A stretch of 64,000 nt of DNA from Candidatus Hermodarchaeota archaeon (GTDB taxonomy: Archaea; Asgardarchaeota; Lokiarchaeia; Sigyniarchaeales; SOKP01): NCBI GenBank assembly GCA_048885525.1, contig JBHLLP010000008.1, positions 1-64,000 on the forward strand, in the 5' to 3' direction. The notes beneath the pieces were generated by a model. It made no database searches. It had not been told where the DNA came from and was given only the letters and a program-made list of their open reading frames with translations. A program made the position numbers and the translations under genes. Of the stretch, positions 33,869-64,000 are shown piece by piece (position 1 is the stretch's first letter; each line of letters starts with the position of its first letter).

Positions 33869-34258
33869 ATGAAAGAAATGGGTAATAAAAAGAGATTTGC
33901 ATATTGTAAGAATTGTGAAAAGGAAATTTTCAAGCCAAAAAGAAAATCCATAGAGAATATGTACATTAATATCTGGATTCTTGCTATTATTTCTTCATTG
34001 GGTTTTGCACTAGCACCATTTCTTATTTATCGATATGGGATTTTGAAAAGAGATATCTGTCCATATTGCCATAATCACCTAAGCTTCTACAGTACTCGTG
34101 AAGAAATTCCAGAACCTAAAACCCAAATTGTGCGAATACTTCAAAAAATTGAAGATGAAAAAAAAGAAAAAGAACAAGTCTATTGTCCGTATTGCAAACA
34201 AGAAATAATGAAAGATACAGAAATTTGCCCTAGTTGCGGTGCTCAACTAATAGAATAA
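33869..34258 (+). CDS. LITAF-like zinc-ribbon membrane protein with a C-terminal double-CxxC ribbon
   Basis: CKNC - hydrophobic stretch - CPYC, then CPYC...CPSC. Confidence 0.7.
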   Translation: MKEMGNKKRFAYCKNCEKEIFKPKRKSIENMYINIWILAIISSLGFALAPFLIYRYGILKRDICPYCHNHLSFYSTREEIPEPKTQIVRILQKIEDEKKEKEQVYCPYCKQEIMKDTEICPSCGAQLIE

Positions 34259-34334
34259 AAATTTATATTAATAAAACTATTCATTATCTTAAAGTCTAAA
34301 GCAATTATAAAAAAATAATTTAAAATCACTGAAA

Positions 34335-34712
34335 ATGACAACTAAAAATCCTACGGGATATTGCAGCCGTTGTAACCAAAATGTCCTCTTAAAACGTGAG
34401 GATATTGATACGTGTCTTGCTATAATACTACTGATCTTTACTGCTGGAATTGGTTTATTAATATATTTAGCTTGGTATTATTCACGCCCAGAAGAACATT
34501 GCATTCATTGCGGGGCAAAGATAACTCCTTTTCAAACGCAAAGCCCATATTCATCTCAACCTCAAACCCAACCACCTTCTTATTCAACACCCTTAAATGT
34601 ATCTGAAGAAGTAACAGGAGCTAGAGCTAATTTTTGCGCTTTATGTGGAGAAAAACTAGATCTAGGCATAAGATTTTGTCCGAACTGCGGGAGTCAAATT
34701 ACAGAAAATTAA
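34335..34712 (+). CDS. LITAF-like zinc-ribbon membrane protein with a C-terminal double-CxxC ribbon
   Basis: CSRC - hydrophobic stretch - HCIHC, Pro/Gln/Ser linker containing PPSY, then CALC...CPNC. Confidence 0.72.
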   Translation: MTTKNPTGYCSRCNQNVLLKREDIDTCLAIILLIFTAGIGLLIYLAWYYSRPEEHCIHCGAKITPFQTQSPYSSQPQTQPPSYSTPLNVSEEVTGARANFCALCGEKLDLGIRFCPNCGSQITEN

Positions 34713-34844
34713 ATATTTAAGTTTTTTTCTTAATAACTTTATTTTTACATTTCACTTTTAAAAATTGGACTCCAATTTTTTTTAATTCGATTAAGATCTC
34801 CTAGAAATTAAAAAAAAAAACATTTAATTTGGAGTGATAGAAAA

Positions 34845-35213
34845 GTGTATTGTCCGAAATGTAATACAAATGTATATACAAAAAAAAATGATTTTAATAT
34901 AGGTTTGGCGATTTTTTTAGCTATATTCACTGGAGGTATCGGTCTCTTAATTTATGTTGCGATCTATTTAGACAAGGAACATAAACCTCGATGTATACAC
35001 TGTAATAGTGTCTGTTATGAACAAAAAGAAATTAATCACCCAGTTTCAAGTTACCAAGTTATAACTACATCTCATCAGTTAGGTAATCAAAAAGTTATTT
35101 TAGAATCACAGAAAGTTGAGGACAAAGCAACTTTTTGTTATAATTGTGGATCTGAACTAGATCAGAGTGAAAATGCTAAATTCTGTGCACTTTGCGGAAG
35201 TTTAATCAATTAA
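34845..35213 (+). CDS. LITAF-like zinc-ribbon membrane protein with a C-terminal double-CxxC ribbon
   Basis: CPKC - IFTGGIGLLIY - CIHC, then CYNC...CALC; clear paralog of 34335-34712. Confidence 0.72.
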   Translation: MYCPKCNTNVYTKKNDFNIGLAIFLAIFTGGIGLLIYVAIYLDKEHKPRCIHCNSVCYEQKEINHPVSSYQVITTSHQLGNQKVILESQKVEDKATFCYNCGSELDQSENAKFCALCGSLIN

Positions 35214-37107: not shown

Positions 37108-37671
37108 ATGAAAAAAATATCTCTTAGTCCAAAAATCTCTACTTTTCCAATGCCTGCTGCAGTCATTTCTGTAGGAATAGGGGAAGACGCGAATTTAATA
37201 ACTTTGGCCTATGTTGGAAAAGTATGCTTTAATCCCCCCATTATTGCTGTTTCTATCCAACCTAAGCGGCATTCTTATCAATTAATTGAAAAACATGGTG
37301 AGTTTGTAATTAATTATCCTACTATACACCAATTAAGAGAAACTGATTATTGTGGTACGCGTTCAGGACGAGAAGTTAATAAATGGAAAGAATTAAATTT
37401 AACCAAAGAACAAGCATCTATAGTAAAAGTTCCAATGATAAAGGAGTTTCCATGGAACATGGAATGTAAGGTATTAAAAAGAATCGAATTTGGATCACAT
37501 GTCAGTTATTTTGGGAGGGTGGTTGCTACTCATTCTGATCCTAAGTATGTTAAAAATGATGCACTAAATCCAGAAGAATTCAACTTCCCAGCATATATAG
37601 CGGGTAATTATCTTGAACTAAAAAAAGGTGCTATAGGAAAACATGGATTTTCAGAGGAATCGTGCCTTTAA
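37108..37671 (+). CDS. Flavin reductase-like FMN-binding protein
   Basis: PMPAAVIS, GEFVINYP, CGTRSGR, MECKV, GSH. Confidence 0.88.
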   Translation: MKKISLSPKISTFPMPAAVISVGIGEDANLITLAYVGKVCFNPPIIAVSIQPKRHSYQLIEKHGEFVINYPTIHQLRETDYCGTRSGREVNKWKELNLTKEQASIVKVPMIKEFPWNMECKVLKRIEFGSHVSYFGRVVATHSDPKYVKNDALNPEEFNFPAYIAGNYLELKKGAIGKHGFSEESCL

Positions 37672-37717
37672 AGATACAAAAATAAACCAAAAAGTAAACT
37701 AATGAAAGTAATAAAAT

Positions 37718-38248
37718 ATGTCTAAAGATTCAATTGCTCTTATTGGTTTTATGGCTACCGGAAAATCAACTGTAGGTAGAGCGTTAGCTCAATATCTTGG
37801 TGATGATTATAAATTTCTTGAAATTGATCAACTAATAGTTCAAAAAACTGGTAAATCAATTCCACAAATTTTTGAAGAAGAGGGAGAAAGTAAATTTAGA
37901 GAATATGAAAGTTCAGTTTGTAAAGAAGTCTCTGAATTAAACAAAGTCGTAATTTCATGTGGGGGTGGAGTTGTTTTAAATAAGCTCAATATTGAAAATT
38001 TGAAGAAAAATTGTTATATTGTCCTATTAAAAGCTAATTTCGAAGAAATTTACAATAGAATATTAGAAAATGGAAAAGAAGCAAGACCAATTGTTAACAA
38101 GGAAGATACTGAAAGAGAAATAGTAAAAATTCTAAATTTTAGAAAGCCCTATTATGAAACAGCAGCAGAGATTGTTATTGACACCTCTGAAAAAAGAATT
38201 CAAAATATTGTTAGAGAGATTGTTATAAAAACCCAATTAAAAAGCTAA
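37718..38248 (+). CDS. aroK: Shikimate kinase (bacterial/NMP-kinase type)
   Basis: LIGFMATGKSTVG, FREYE, SCGGG, RP, RKPYY. Confidence 0.92.
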   Translation: MSKDSIALIGFMATGKSTVGRALAQYLGDDYKFLEIDQLIVQKTGKSIPQIFEEEGESKFREYESSVCKEVSELNKVVISCGGGVVLNKLNIENLKKNCYIVLLKANFEEIYNRILENGKEARPIVNKEDTEREIVKILNFRKPYYETAAEIVIDTSEKRIQNIVREIVIKTQLKS

Positions 38249-38307
38249 ATTTAAATTCATTCACTCTACTAAATATTTAAAGTATTTAATATCAGAGTTA
38301 AGGTAAT

Positions 38308-38507
38308 ATGACAGAATTTAAAAGAGTTAAATGTCCCCAATGTGGCAATGAGAATCCACGTATGCTTCATGAGGAACCAGATAAGAGTAATGTGCTTTTC
38401 TATAGTATAAGTATTGCTATTTCAGCATGCTGCTGAAGCAGGGTACTCCGGTTTATTCAAAAAGCATAAAGTGTGGAGGATGCGGAAATCTCTTCAAAAA
38501 GGACTAA
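38308..38507 (+). CDS. Small CxxC...CxxC zinc-finger protein (56 aa) in two segments, 38308-38408 and 38438-38507, split by a 29-nt insert
   Basis: AAGGT SD-like element before ATG 38308. The joined product is MTEFKRVKCPQCGNENPRMLHEEPDKSNVLFYSMQGTPVYSKSIKCGGCGNLFKKD; the unspliced frame stops at TGA 38434. Confidence 0.7.
38409..38437 (+). other. Candidate bulge-helix-bulge intron (29 nt) in a protein-coding gene
   Basis: Central helix UAGU/GCUG, 3-nt bulges AU^A and AA^G, intron stem AGUAU(U)GCU/AGCAUGCU. Cutting after the second nucleotide of each bulge restores the frame. Confidence 0.6.
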
Positions 38508-38601
38508 ATTGTTAAAGCATAATCAAATTTATTATTTTTCTTATTTTTTTATTCTAATTTACAATTCCAATGAAGAAGATTTTCAATGTTATCTTAAATG
38601 A

Positions 38602-39150
38602 TTAAAGACCAAAAGCAGTTTTTATGCTATTTAAATTAAAAATTGTGGTGTCAAACATTGTATACTTTATATTTTCTAATTTCAAATTTGGTTCAATCAT
38701 TTCTAAGAATTTTCCTTTGAGATTTCTCTCATCTGGAATATAATCAGGATCGTTTTTATGAAAAAGGAATACAAATTTAGCGTCAGGGCTGTATTTTTTA
38801 ATCAAGTTAAAAACACCTCTAAAGTACATCACCGAAGGAACAAGACGGTAGTAATCCTGAATATCTACCACATAATAAAAGAACGAAATTGTTTGAAAAT
38901 ATCTTTCAGCATTCAATAAGTAATCATTACGATATGATTCTTGTCCTCCAAAATCCCAGATCTTAGTTTCTTTCTTAAAAAATAAGACAGTACTTCTTTC
39001 TATACCTTTTGTTGGATTCATACTGGGAGGTTTATTAGGTGCTTCACTAATTTTTCCTGTAAGAACATCCAGTATGGTGGTTTTTCCAGCATTTTCCATA
39101 CCCATGATTACAAGCTTTATTGGTAGTTCTTCATCTTCTGGATTATTCAT
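38602..39150 (-). CDS. Ras-superfamily small GTPase (Rag/Gtr- or Arf-like)
   Basis: G1 GMENAGKTT, G2 PTKG, G3 WDFGGQ, G4 HKND, G5-like TTIF. Confidence 0.88.
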   Translation of the reverse strand: MNNPEDEELPIKLVIMGMENAGKTTILDVLTGKISEAPNKPPSMNPTKGIERSTVLFFKKETKIWDFGGQESYRNDYLLNAERYFQTISFFYYVVDIQDYYRLVPSVMYFRGVFNLIKKYSPDAKFVFLFHKNDPDYIPDERNLKGKFLEMIEPNLKLENIKYTMFDTTIFNLNSIKTAFGL

Positions 39151-39248
39151 GATTATTTCATCTTTTTAATTAACTTCATTTATTTTTAAAAAATATTATT
39201 GAAATGAATGAATTTAATAATATATTTAAATGATTGATAAAAAAGTAA

Positions 39249-40142
39249 TTAGCTTGATAATGTTGACGATTTTGAAAGAATATCTGAAAATTTATTCCAA
39301 AACTTTTCTATATCCCATTTCTTCCGCTTTTTATAGAGAGTTGATAATTCTATAAAGATTTGTTTAAATTTCAAAGATTGGAAATATGTGATGGATGATG
39401 CGAGAATTGAAAACATATAATCCTTCCTTCCACCTCTATAATCTTCATGGGGATAAGAATCAAAAAATATATATGCCATAATATTATAGTTTTTTAAAGG
39501 TATTAACAACCCTTCTCCACTTAAAATGGCATCATGACCATACATAGCTTTAACTCCATCGTAGAGTTGATCACTAATACTATTGAGCGAAGATTCTAAT
39601 ATAGTATCTTTAGGGAAATGATTTACCTTTTTTGGACCTATCACATCATCCCAATGTACTTCGATTAATACGATTAGATCTCCAGCTTTTTTAGGAACTA
39701 ATTGTTCTGTGATTTCATATGAAGAAAAAATCTCATTGATTTTTTCATTAATTAAATTAATTGTTTTATTACGTTTAATTTTACCAAAAACAATTGCTAA
39801 GAAATCTTCTTCATTAATTGGTTTTGTAAGATAATCATCTACTCCAAGCATCTTTCCAAATCGAACATCTTCAGGAGAATCAAGAGCAGATAAAAAGATG
39901 AATGGTACTTGACAATAAATCGGGTTATTAGAGACCGCCTCAAAAAAATCATAACCGTTCATTTCTGGCATCATAATATCACTAATAATAAGATCAGGGG
40001 AATCTTTCAACTCTGAAAGAACTTTTCGCCCCTCTTTTCCGTTTTCGGCCGTAATAACTTGGCAATCATTAAATTCTAACATCATTTTAAGATATTTCAA
40101 GATATTAGGGTCATCCTCAACCAAGATTATTAAAGGTTTCAT
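39249..40142 (-). CDS. Response regulator: receiver domain fused to a longin/uDENN-like C-terminal domain (start re-called at ATG 40142)
   Basis: LVEDD, ISDIMMPEMNG, FLSA, YLTKP; C-terminal LIEVHWDDVIGPKKVNHFP. GAGGG lies upstream of 40142, and this start removes the overlap with the kinase gene. Confidence 0.85.
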   Translation of the reverse strand: MKPLIILVEDDPNILKYLKMMLEFNDCQVITAENGKEGRKVLSELKDSPDLIISDIMMPEMNGYDFFEAVSNNPIYCQVPFIFLSALDSPEDVRFGKMLGVDDYLTKPINEEDFLAIVFGKIKRNKTINLINEKINEIFSSYEITEQLVPKKAGDLIVLIEVHWDDVIGPKKVNHFPKDTILESSLNSISDQLYDGVKAMYGHDAILSGEGLLIPLKNYNIMAYIFFDSYPHEDYRGGRKDYMFSILASSITYFQSLKFKQIFIELSTLYKKRKKWDIEKFWNKFSDILSKSSTLSS

Positions 40143-40254
40143 TTTTTTTCCCTCTTGAATAATATTGAAATTTAAATCTTTATTAAATTTAAATGTAACA
40201 TTAACTTTGTAACAAGAGGATGTAGCTATGCCCTGTACAGGTGAAGAAATTGTG

Positions 40255-41886
40255 ATGATTTGGGATCCCTTTGAACGATTTTTATGGGGGATTGCAATAA
40301 TTATAGCATTAGTATGTGGAATATATTTTATAAGAATAGCTAAAAGAAGAGAAGTCTTTAATGAAAGAATCATTATGCTAGGACTAGCAAGTTTACCTCT
40401 CGGATTTGCATTTAGTTTGTTTTTTACTTACTTTCAAGTTCTTCAAGTTCAAGGAGATTTTAGTAACAATATTTTTTGCGGGAATTATGAAAACTTTATT
40501 ACACAACCATATGAACTTTTTGGAAAACTAAGTTATATCTCATTTGGAATAGGAGGCACGGTCTTTGTATTAGCCTTTGAAATTATTATAAAACGCACGA
40601 AATATATTATCACTATTATATTCTTAATCATAATAGTAATAATAATTATTCCTCTCGATTTTGAAATAACAAGAAGGGTATTTGATTATCCACTAATACT
40701 CGCATTAGTAATTTCTATTCCACTTATATTATTTCTTTATACAAAATGGTCTAATCTTGAGTTTAAGGCTGTTTCTTCGTTTTTATTATTTGGATTTCTC
40801 TTATTCATGATCTCATTAATACTAGCTCATAGAAGGCATAAAATGCTTGATGTTTACCCGTTATTTTTGAGTCCGTTTCTTTTTATATTAGGTTGCGGCA
40901 TCATCGTATTACCAATAATTATTAATCCTACGAAACTTTCTCGAGCTTTAACTTATTGGGTATTATTAGCAATTTTTAATATGCCTATACATATAATTAT
41001 ATTAATTATTGATATTATCAAAAATCTACAACCTTTCTTAATACTTGAATTTCTTGGAGCTATAATATATGTATACGCGTTGTTCTTTTTTATAATAAAA
41101 AATATAAAATCTGATATAATTTCAGCGAGACAAGAAACACATAAAGTTGAAGAAGATTTTAAAGCTGATTTTTTAGCAATGTTCACTAGACCACAACAAG
41201 TTAGTTTTTTAGCTAGTATAAGCCACGAATTAAGAACTCCATTAACCTCAATAATTGGTTTTACAAGAACGATACTAAGTGGAAGAGCGGGGGATATTAA
41301 TGAAGAACAAAAAAAACAGCTTAATATTATTCTAAATAGTGCAAACCATTTACATGAATTAATTACTGATGTAATTGATATGACTAAAATAGAAGTTAAC
41401 AAATTAAACATAAAAAAAGAGAAATTTGATCTCGTAGAAGAGCTGATAAAAATTAAAGAAATATTTAATGTAGTTTCTGATGAGAAAGGGCTTGAATTTT
41501 TAATGGATACGCCTGAATATCTTACAATTTATAATGATAAAAAAAGAATAACTCAAATTTTATTGAACCTAATTGGAAACGCTGTAAAATTCACTGATAA
41601 AGGCAAAATTTCTATAAAAATTCGATTATCAAAAAGAGAAATTGCCATTTCAGTTAAAGACACCGGTCCGGGAATAAAGCAGGAAGATTTAAAAAAGTTA
41701 TTCAAACCGTTTAGCCGAATTCTCGAAACTGGGAAACCTAAAGAGGGAAGTGGTCTAGGACTTCATCTCTCTAAGAAATTAGCGAATCTACTCGGGGGAG
41801 ATATATTAGTAAAAAGCAAATCCGGGAAAGGAAGCACATTCAAATTAATTTTAATAAGAGAGAATAGTCGACAAAAAAGTAATTAA
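40255..41886 (+). CDS. Multi-TM sensor histidine kinase (start 40255 or 40228)
   Basis: About 8-9 hydrophobic segments; H-box SHELRTPL, N-box NLIGNAVKFT, DTGPGI, GSGLGL. Confidence 0.92.
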   Translation: MIWDPFERFLWGIAIIIALVCGIYFIRIAKRREVFNERIIMLGLASLPLGFAFSLFFTYFQVLQVQGDFSNNIFCGNYENFITQPYELFGKLSYISFGIGGTVFVLAFEIIIKRTKYIITIIFLIIIVIIIIPLDFEITRRVFDYPLILALVISIPLILFLYTKWSNLEFKAVSSFLLFGFLLFMISLILAHRRHKMLDVYPLFLSPFLFILGCGIIVLPIIINPTKLSRALTYWVLLAIFNMPIHIIILIIDIIKNLQPFLILEFLGAIIYVYALFFFIIKNIKSDIISARQETHKVEEDFKADFLAMFTRPQQVSFLASISHELRTPLTSIIGFTRTILSGRAGDINEEQKKQLNIILNSANHLHELITDVIDMTKIEVNKLNIKKEKFDLVEELIKIKEIFNVVSDEKGLEFLMDTPEYLTIYNDKKRITQILLNLIGNAVKFTDKGKISIKIRLSKREIAISVKDTGPGIKQEDLKKLFKPFSRILETGKPKEGSGLGLHLSKKLANLLGGDILVKSKSGKGSTFKLILIRENSRQKSN

Positions 41887-55462: not shown

Positions 55463-55466
55463 AAAG

Positions 55467-55566
55467 CGCAGCTGATGGGATTTGAACCCATGAGTGCATT
55501 GCACACTGGCTTTCTGGGATAAATTCCGCTCCAAGCCAGCGCCGTACCAGGCTAGGCTACAGCTGC
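55467..55566 (-). tRNA. tRNA-Ser(GGA) with a 17-nt intron at 37/38 (55512-55528)
   Basis: Acceptor GCAGCTG/CAGCTGC with G73, anticodon stem CTGGC/GCCAG, long variable arm GTGCA-A-TGCAC, T arm ATGGG-TTCAAAT-CCCAT, BHB central helix UUGG/CCAG. Confidence 0.92.
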
Positions 55567-63684: not shown

Positions 63685-63836
63685 AGCTATTCAGCTTTTT
63701 TAAATTTTTTTTACTAATATAAAAATGTCTCTTTTTATCACTTCAATTATTAATATAACAGATTACACCAATAAAAAAATTTTTATCTTTTTTCTGATTT
63801 AATTAGTTTATAATAATTTCATATTTTCATTTATTT

Positions 63837-63981
63837 GGGCCATTAGCTCAGCTTGGTTAACAAGTTTTTGTTGCTTGGTCAACAAGCGCAGGTCTTATAA
63901 ATGACCATCGGACATACATAAAAAACATTTGTCCGAAAAAGTAAAAACCTGAGATCCGGGGTTCGAATCCCCGATGGCCCA
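63837..63981 (+). tRNA. tRNA-Ile(UAU) with two introns (about 63860-63883 at 21/22, and a 46-nt intron at about 63900-63946 in the anticodon loop)
   Basis: Acceptor GGGCCAT/ATGGCCC with A73, anticodon arm CAGGT-CT-TAT-AA-ACCTG after splicing, short variable loop, T arm CGGGG-TTCGAAT-CCCCG. The D-arm intron forms a BHB; mature length 75 nt. Confidence 0.85.
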
Positions 63982-64000
63982 TTTTATATAAAGTATTTAA

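What the first reader, a model, noticed from the sequence alone, without database searches (positions are those of the whole stretch)
38308..38507. Candidate bulge-helix-bulge (tRNA-type) intron inside a protein-coding gene of an Asgard-like archaeon
Seen: a gene missed by the ORF track has one zinc knuckle (CPQC) before a TGA and the partner knuckle (CGGC) in another frame. Removing the 29 nt 38409-38437 (AAGTATTGCTATTTCAGCATGCTGCTGAA) joins AT^G into ...LFYSMQGTPVYSKSIKCGGC..., a 56-aa CxxC-CxxC protein. The same junctions fit BHB geometry independently: 4-bp central helix UAGU/GCUG (two G-U pairs), 3-nt bulges AU^A and AA^G each cut after the second nucleotide, an 8-bp intron stem with one bulged U and an AUUUC loop, and an imperfect exon helix (A-C mismatch then UCU/AGG, or GUGCUUU/AGGGUAC, which would be a relaxed BHL form). 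Known: archaeal EndA plus RtcB splice BHB introns in tRNA and rRNA, and the classic mRNA case is crenarchaeal cbf5. Inference: this is an endonuclease-spliced mRNA intron that could act as an on/off switch for the zinc-finger protein, reminiscent of ligase-dependent HAC1/XBP1 splicing. An alternative fold (UUCAGCA/UGCUGAA hairpin) competes with the BHB and could gate splicing.
Basis: partly seen in the sequence, partly recalled or inferred. Interest (0 to 1): 0.92.

Follow-up and report, generated by a model that had tools for sequence, protein, structure and literature searches.

The report
tRNA-type intron in Asgard zinc-ribbon gene
A small zinc-binding protein gene of an Asgard archaeon is interrupted by a 29-base insert shaped like the introns archaea cut out of tRNAs, and dozens of relatives show that the gene is alive and readable only once the insert is removed, so these closest relatives of eukaryotes very probably splice ordinary messenger RNAs, which the papers searched report inside a protein-coding sequence only for cbf5.

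Summary
Observation confirmed. The 29-nt insert (38409-38437) sits at the same site, always 29 nt, in 35 of 49 same-genus orthologs (Promethearchaeota/Lokiarchaeia). The other 14 lack it and read YSMQG exactly as the predicted AT^G junction does. Every insert carries an in-frame stop. Exon 2 is under purifying selection only in the spliced frame (dN/dS 0.063). The helices covary (7 pairs with compensatory changes, 0/500 shuffles), and only one excision register fits the bulge-helix-bulge rule. Nine other homologs carry 30-36-nt inserts at three further sites, and these obey the same rule. The genome encodes a two-subunit EndA, RtcB and archease. Other genes here (JAMM, AMP phosphorylase, a Rab-like GTPase) and uL11 and EF-2 in relatives carry similar frame-breaking inserts. 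Best reading (0.9): an EndA/RtcB-spliced mRNA intron, one of a lineage-wide class. Splicing itself is inferred; no RNA reads were obtainable. The on/off-switch idea is unsupported: the competing hairpin shows no covariation. The 3' side is usually a relaxed (internal-loop) motif. The scan had already noted such introns in other genes of this and other archaeal genomes.

The parts
38308..38408 (+). Exon 1 (Met to the first two bases of the split Met34 codon; first CxxC knuckle at 38332-38343)
   Evidence: dN/dS 0.066 across 35 orthologs
38409..38437 (+). 29-nt BHB-type intron, phase 2, with in-frame TGA at 38434-38436
   Evidence: 29 nt in all 35 carriers, absent in 14 orthologs
38438..38507 (+). 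Exon 2 (G of the split ATG, QGTPVY, second CxxC knuckle, TAA)
   Evidence: dN/dS 0.063 in the spliced frame versus 3.3 and 1.1 in the other frames
38403..38409 (+). 5' strand of the central helix H (38403-38406) and the 5' 3-nt bulge (38407-38409; cut after 38408)
   Evidence: H 99% paired over 34 distinct orthologs
38432..38438 (+). 3' strand of the central helix H (38432-38435) and the 3' bulge or loop (38436-38438; cut after 38437)
38410..38431 (+). Intron stem h' (38410-38413 with 38428-38431), inner stem (38415-38418 with 38424-38427) and loop
   Evidence: 6 of 7 pairs show compensatory change
38392..38446 (+). Exon-exon helix (38392-38398 with 38440-38446) closing a 4x4 internal loop on the 3' splice side: the relaxed form of the motif
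   Evidence: 93% paired, one wobble-position pair with compensatory changes; the same hairpin potential is visible in intronless alleles

Best explanation
The gene encodes a 56-aa stand-alone zinc-ribbon protein of a Promethearchaeota-specific domain family, and its mRNA carries a 29-nt tRNA-type intron. Mechanism: (1, shown by covariation) the pre-mRNA can fold into exon helix - loop - 4-bp helix - 3-nt bulge - intron hairpin. (2, inferred from established archaeal biochemistry) the two-subunit EndA cuts after the second nucleotide of each bulge, after 38408 and after 38437. (3, inferred) RtcB with archease joins the exons, re-creating the invariant Met codon from AU and G, and probably circularises the 29-mer. 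(4, shown indirectly by selection) only the joined frame is conserved, so the spliced mRNA is the one that yields the functional protein; unspliced mRNA stops within the intron. This is one member of a class of about 30-nt introns that this lineage gains and precisely loses in many mRNAs. Splicing is most likely constitutive housekeeping by the tRNA machinery, not a gene-specific switch.
For: 35 of 49 same-genus orthologs carry the insert, all 29 nt, same site; 14 lack it and read YSMQG with identical spacing. S, M, Q and G are invariant in 33 uninterrupted homologs, and the Met codon exists only after excision at the BHB-predicted point. All 35 inserts have an in-frame stop (TGA 26, TAA 9, three positions); the exon-2 frame is closed within the insert in 26 of 35; intron variation has no codon periodicity but is lower at paired positions. 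Covariation: 96.9% cells paired, 7 pairs with both-side changes, 0/500 shuffles; slid controls 24-51% paired. Nine more inserts of 30-36 nt at three further sites of the same gene restore ortholog length at a best register with a perfect 4-bp central helix in eight and 3/4 in one. EndA alpha with a crenarchaeal-type loop and Y/H/K region, a second EndA subunit lacking the His, RtcB and archease are in the genome; intron-bearing tRNAs are common. JAMM (31 nt) and AMP phosphorylase (30 nt) inserts of this genome are confirmed by intronless orthologs; Rab-like GTPase, and uL11 and EF-2 in relatives.
Against: In the window genome the BHB is not the predicted dominant fold (helix H probability 0.08-0.14). 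The 3' side is usually a 4x4 internal loop rather than a clean 3-nt bulge, so cleavage needs a relaxed-specificity enzyme, which is inferred from sequence only. The orthologs are related, so covariation counts are not independent events.
Confidence: 0.9

Rival explanations
1. Same intron, but splicing is a regulated on/off switch for this protein (HAC1/XBP1-like), gated by the competing hairpin inside the intron.
For: In the window genome the competing hairpin is the predicted majority fold (0.78). A 5-6-bp core can form in most orthologs, and it dominates in 10 of 35. The intron is unusually stable in length and site, and the gene attracted introns at four sites within 27 nt. A regulatory role was proposed for the cbf5 intron (PMC2738675).
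Against: 0 of 7 pairs with compensatory change; covariation at shuffle level (423/500); 80% paired versus 96-99% for the BHB helices. Both strands of the hairpin are already constrained by BHB helices, so its persistence is expected as a by-product. 14 of 49 orthologs lack the intron. Similar introns sit in housekeeping genes. Unlike HAC1/XBP1, no dedicated stress nuclease is implied.
Confidence: 0.12
2. The insert is skipped during translation (programmed -1 frameshift, ribosomal hop, or Sec read-through of the TGA), or the gene is made as two peptides.
For: In the window the exon-2 frame is open across the insert and holds an ATG at 38427-38429; the in-frame stop is TGA and the genome has tRNA-Sec.
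Against: The exon-2 frame is open across the insert in only 9 of 35 orthologs and has an ATG in 6; the first stop is TAA in 9 and falls after 2, 5 or 9 codons; there is no codon periodicity. Take-off and landing codons (ATA, AAG) do not match, and neither gives the invariant Met. Read-through stays in the wrong frame and misses the second knuckle. The other inserts occur in different phases and lengths.
Confidence: 0.02
3. The insert is removed by another route: excision at the DNA level in part of the population, or an RNA nuclease other than EndA.
For: No direct RNA data. Exactly intronless alleles exist, and a tree of neighbouring genes needs 3 changes of state.
Against: Ten inserts, most unrelated in sequence, share only the EndA geometry (4-bp helix, cut after the second bulge base), with no common terminal repeat or duplication. 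The genome has the full EndA/RtcB/archease set.
Confidence: 0.05
4. Pseudogenising insertion or assembly artefact.
For: Raw reads were not inspected.
Against: Present in 35 independently assembled genomes whose synonymous sites have diverged strongly (pS about 0.6-0.7). Both exons are under strong purifying selection and the second CxxC is intact in all 35.
Confidence: 0.01

Closest known systems
cbf5 (pseudouridine synthase) pre-mRNA intron of Desulfurococcales and Sulfolobales (Watanabe 2002; Yoshinari 2006; Yokobori 2009, PMC2738675)
   Same: Short intron inside a coding sequence, splitting a codon of a conserved residue; often a relaxed BHB; cut sites after the second bulge base; hetero-oligomeric EndA; patchy presence with apparent gain and precise loss.
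   Different: Different phylum (Promethearchaeota, Asgard) and gene. Four intron sites in one 170-nt gene, two genomes with two introns in it, and many other interrupted genes per genome, against a single site in a single gene family. cbf5 splicing is shown by cDNA; this one is not.
Non-canonical tRNA introns of Asgard archaea (bioRxiv 10.64898/2026.10.13.758758) and Thermoproteales (Fujishima 2010, as cited there)
   Same: Size, BHB boundaries, repeated independent gain, two-paralog EndA. In genome G016 the second intron looks like a copy of the first at a second CAGUAU site, as in Thermoproteales intron transposition.
   Different: The host is an mRNA. That preprint surveys tRNA genes only (0 occurrences of 'mRNA') and finds little copying. 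This intron has no sequence homolog elsewhere in its own genome.
Haloferax volcanii HVO_1309 5' UTR BHB intron (PMC7714728)
   Same: EndA substrate in an mRNA; excised circle.
   Different: It lies in the UTR and does not interrupt the reading frame; homodimeric EndA; a single case.
HAC1/XBP1 splicing (IRE1 plus Trl1/RtcB) (own knowledge)
   Same: Spliceosome-independent removal of a 20-30-nt (XBP1: 26-nt) piece that changes the reading frame, with ligation by RtcB.
   Different: IRE1 cuts two separate stem-loops under stress control. Here the geometry is a BHB for EndA, and no regulation is evidenced.

Membership tests
Archaeal BHB (EndA-spliced) intron | 4-bp central helix between 5' exon and intron 3' end | tested here: met
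   99.3% of cells paired in 34 distinct orthologs; 4/4 in the window
Archaeal BHB (EndA-spliced) intron | 3-nt bulge on the 5' side followed by intron helix h' | tested here: met
   h' 95.6% paired, 4 of 4 pairs with compensatory change
Archaeal BHB (EndA-spliced) intron | Strict 3-nt bulge on the 3' side closed directly by exon helix h (canonical hBHBh') | tested here: not met
   First exon pair is an A-C mismatch in all 17 tested; the conserved exon helix starts after a 4x4 internal loop. It is the relaxed form, as for many cbf5 and non-canonical tRNA introns (PMC2738675)
Archaeal BHB (EndA-spliced) intron | Cutting after the second base of each bulge restores the uninterrupted gene exactly | tested here: met
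   Junction equals intronless orthologs base for base in G019, G002, G064, G058, G049; unique register
Archaeal BHB (EndA-spliced) intron | Host encodes an EndA able to cut relaxed motifs, and a ligase | tested here: met
   Two EndA paralogs, alpha most similar to Aeropyrum pernix alpha including the specific loop; RtcB and archease adjacent. The substrate range is inferred from sequence, not assayed
Archaeal BHB (EndA-spliced) intron | Spliced RNA or excised circle observed; cleavage by EndA in vitro | not testable with these tools
HAC1/XBP1-type regulated splicing switch | Conserved structural element that gates splicing | tested here: not met
   Competing hairpin has no compensatory change; covariation at shuffle level
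HAC1/XBP1-type regulated splicing switch | Condition-dependent splicing | not testable with these tools
   Needs transcriptomes
Translational bypass / programmed frameshift | Matching take-off and landing codons, or an open shifted frame across the insert | tested here: not met
   Shifted frame closed in 26 of 35; codons ATA and AAG do not match
Known Pfam zinc-ribbon or Rfam RNA family | Score above the curated cut-off | tested here: not met
   Only sub-threshold Pfam hits; no Rfam match in 37500-39500; no PDB fold match at E <= 0.001

The most novel reading that the evidence does not exclude
Lokiarchaeia run a spliceosome-independent mRNA intron system: roughly 30-nt tRNA-type introns interrupt many protein genes per genome (including core translation genes), are removed by EndA/RtcB, and are still being gained, copied within a gene and precisely lost. 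This small gene, with four intron sites in 27 nt and two-intron alleles, is a hotspot of that turnover. Protein expression in close relatives of eukaryotes would then already depend broadly on mRNA splicing, and many 'pseudogenes' and truncated annotations in Asgard genomes would be intact genes.
Probability: 0.75. Interest if true: 0.92.

Novelty: new variant of a known kind. Interest (0 to 1): 0.8.

Why it matters
Papers found here name cbf5 as the only archaeal coding sequence with a confirmed BHB intron (PMC7714728, PMC2738675), and six further searches found no report of such mRNA introns in Asgard archaea (the library lacks most subscription journals). If these are spliced, Asgard archaea with coupled transcription and translation must cope with many intron-containing mRNAs, which bears on why the nucleus and mRNA surveillance arose and on the ancestry of RtcB-dependent HAC1/XBP1 splicing. 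It also means current annotations truncate or miss real genes (NCBI lists the 42-aa exon-1 product as a hypothetical protein). This gene is an unusually clean test object: 170 nt, four intron sites, intronless controls, and one apparent intragenic intron copy, which speaks to the open question of how BHB introns arrive.

Tried and rejected
A scan of JGI contigs for the spliced junction and a look-up of a close intronless homolog gave only contigs that cannot be shown to be RNA-derived. A covariance model of the intron found no second copy in the genome, nor did short BLAST. A reference-free genome scan for BHB plus ORF joining showed no excess over shifted-length controls (one search timed out). 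It is dominated by adjacent operon genes and missed this very intron, so I use it only as a source of candidates and give no count from it. The argument that AGY versus TCN serine codons mark intron loss was dropped: TCN genomes nest among AGY ones, and AGY is common in distant intronless homologs. Gain versus loss is unresolved: the tree of neighbouring genes needs 3 changes and rejects one clade of carriers (AU p = 0.015), but it has no outgroup root and starred branches force only 1 change. Sec read-through, frameshift, bypass and two-peptide readings were rejected. Fold searches gave no function: PDB nothing significant, ESM feature search unnamed clusters. The sigma-70 promoter scan is not applicable to archaea and showed nothing above shuffles. 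The Rab check failed through a string-search slip; that case rests.

Full report
Observation. The sequence is as described. An ORF starts at 38308 with a CPQC knuckle and ends at a TGA (38434-38436) after 42 codons. A second knuckle, CGGC, lies in another frame and ends at TAA 38505-38507. Removing 38409-38437 joins AT and G into a Met codon and yields 56 aa. The same junctions fit a bulge-helix-bulge: helix H 38403-38406 with 38432-38435, bulges at 38407-38409 and 38436-38438, an intron hairpin, and an exon-exon helix 38392-38398 with 38440-38446. By energy alone the window's motif is weak: it is not the minimum-energy fold and the region folds no better than shuffles (z = -1.34). The evidence is therefore comparative.

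Orthologs. The gene was recovered from 49 genomes of the same genus, 48 of them next to aroK; record titles place the group in Promethearchaeota. Thirty-five carry an insert at the same site, always 29 nt; fourteen lack it and read YSMQG with identical knuckle spacing, five of them matching the predicted spliced junction base for base. S, M, Q and G are invariant in 33 uninterrupted homologs from the protein database. Among the 35 carriers, exon 1 has dN/dS 0.066 and exon 2 has 0.063 in the spliced frame, against 3.3 and 1.1 in the other two frames; the second CxxC is intact in all. The gene is alive, and the selected product is the joined one. This removes the artefact and pseudogene readings.

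The insert is selected as structure, not as codons. All 35 inserts contain an in-frame stop (TGA in 26, TAA in 9, after 2, 5 or 9 codons). The exon-2 frame is closed inside the insert in 26 of 35 and has an ATG in only 6. Variation shows no codon periodicity and is about half as high at paired positions. On 17 orthologs the named structure has 96.9% of cells paired and 7 pairs with changes on both sides; none of 500 shuffles reaches this, and slid controls give 24-51%. On all 34 distinct sequences H is 99% paired, h' 96% with compensatory changes in all four pairs, and the inner stem 98%. Of 21 possible registers for a 29-nt excision, only the predicted one gives H 4/4 and h' at least 3/4 (32 of 35 genomes); a shuffled insert gives H 4/4 and h' 4/4 in 0.12% of trials. 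The sequences are related, so these counts overstate independent events, but several different pair types recur. On the 3' side the first exon pair is an A-C mismatch and the conserved exon helix begins after a 4x4 internal loop: the motif is the relaxed form, not the strict canonical one.

Independent replicates in the same gene. Nine further homologs carry inserts of 30-36 nt at three other sites, 17, 21 and 26 nt downstream of the first in spliced coordinates. For eight of them the best length-restoring excision has a perfect 4-bp H, and the runner-up scores clearly lower where it was printed; for G017 H is 3/4 and the register is ambiguous by 3 nt. Two genomes (G016, G017) have two introns in this 170-nt gene. 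In G016 the second resembles the first and sits after a second CAGUAU, which suggests copying within the gene (inference). These inserts share geometry but mostly not sequence, which is what an EndA substrate rule predicts and what a translational or transposon explanation does not.

Machinery. The genome encodes two EndA paralogs. One is closest to the Aeropyrum pernix alpha subunit and aligns across its specific loop and catalytic region; the other lacks the catalytic His position. RtcB and archease are neighbours. Many tRNA genes have introns. From established knowledge, the two-subunit enzyme accepts relaxed motifs and makes cbf5 mRNA splicing possible (PMC2738675). An Asgard survey found two EndA paralogs in 44 of 60 genomes but notes that the substrate range is unmeasured.

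It is not alone. Earlier notes of this scan pointed to other interrupted genes in this genome and in other archaea; I treated them as leads. My reference-free scan gave no statistical excess but listed joins that rebuild the JAMM motif, the AMP phosphorylase DKHSTGG motif and the CdhA cysteine motif. For JAMM (31 nt) and AMP phosphorylase (30 nt), genus-wide alignments show the insert in some genomes and a precise absence in others. An unbiased comparison of 630 kb of two relatives with this genome found six frame-breaking coding inserts. Four of 28-32 nt have H 4/4 on the sense strand: JAMM and a Rab-like GTPase here, uL11 in G006 and EF-2 in G023. One 30-nt case is weaker and one 52-nt case is probably spurious. 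In-frame indels showed no such geometry. The uL11 and EF-2 halves continue in their NCBIfam models across the insert (positions 30/32 and 60/62). That is a few differing introns per megabase, so ten or more per genome is a rough inference. Copy number of uL11 and EF-2 in those genomes was not checked.

The switch idea. The competing hairpin is real in the window (78% of the predicted ensemble) but dominates in only 10 of 35 orthologs, is 80% paired and shows no compensatory change. Both of its strands are already fixed by BHB helices. With introns in housekeeping genes and 14 intronless orthologs, constitutive splicing is the simpler reading. Regulation is not excluded (about 0.12).

History. 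A tree of the neighbouring aroK and flavin reductase genes needs three changes of state and rejects a single clade of carriers (AU p = 0.015), but it is unrooted and starred branches force only one change. Precise loss in one or two lineages is likely but not shown. Most more distant homologs are intronless, so the intron probably arose within or at the base of this genus.

The protein. No Pfam family passes its cut-off. The model of an intronless ortholog (pLDDT 84) is a zinc ribbon with a long beta-hairpin whose tip is the invariant YSMQG segment split by the intron. The nearest predicted structures are Promethearchaeota proteins, including a gelsolin-domain protein and coiled-coil proteins (TM 0.69-0.80). 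In this genome six paralogs carry the domain at their C-terminus, one behind two gelsolin repeats and two behind long coiled coils. My inference is a small protein-interaction module linked to cytoskeleton-like proteins (perhaps 0.4); this is not tested.

Comparison and verdict. It works like the cbf5 intron and meets every BHB-intron criterion testable here except the strict 3' bulge, which cbf5 introns often also lack. It differs in phylum, in the multiplicity of sites and in being part of a genome-wide class. Literature searches found no report for Asgard mRNAs; a 2020 paper names cbf5 as the only earlier case beyond tRNA and rRNA. The scan itself had noted the same phenomenon in other genes and genomes. 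Verdict: real intron, EndA/RtcB splicing 0.9 likely, switch unsupported, new variant of a known kind, interest 0.8.

Noticed in passing
window 55466-55566 (-) and 63836-63982 (+): Intron-containing tRNA-Ser(GGA) and tRNA-Asp(GTC, apparently several inserts); the find_trnas tool reported none in the window, ARAGORN with the intron option finds both.
   Followed up: partly
L209:352-494 (G000 C19 near 36937): A 5S rRNA gene with a 30-nt insert of BHB geometry (H 4/4) that relative G006 lacks. I found no report of a 5S rRNA intron in one search.
   Followed up: partly
L170:19379-19406 (G006) and L195:12056-12085 (G023): Frame-breaking BHB inserts in ribosomal protein uL11 (28 nt) and in aEF-2 (30 nt, in-frame stop).
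   Followed up: yes
L070:1063-1093 (JAMM), L072:1045-1074 (AMP phosphorylase), L210 near 893 (Rab-like GTPase), L076 near 2156 (cdhA): Further BHB-type inserts in protein genes of the window's genome; JAMM and AMP phosphorylase checked against orthologs, Rab against one relative, cdhA by motif only.
   Followed up: partly
L017 (G016), second insert about 17 nt after the first: A 31-nt intron resembling the first intron, inserted after a second CAGUAU in the same gene: a candidate intragenic copying event.
   Followed up: partly
L138, L139, L143: Distant relatives carry two tandem intronless copies of this small gene about 375 nt apart.
   Followed up: no
G000 C2 near 92713: A 30-nt insert with an in-frame stop and a 6-nt terminal repeat in an unidentified gene; only a weak BHB fit.
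   Followed up: partly
window 38602-41886: Rag/Arf-like small GTPase and a receiver-domain protein, divergent from membrane histidine kinases; other notes of the scan describe this locus in relatives.
   Followed up: no
window 33869-35213: Three tandem membrane proteins with several CxxC zinc ribbons each.
   Followed up: no
L154:458-935: aroK is split in this relative with about 16 residues missing, which looks like a deletion or assembly error rather than an intron.
   Followed up: partly
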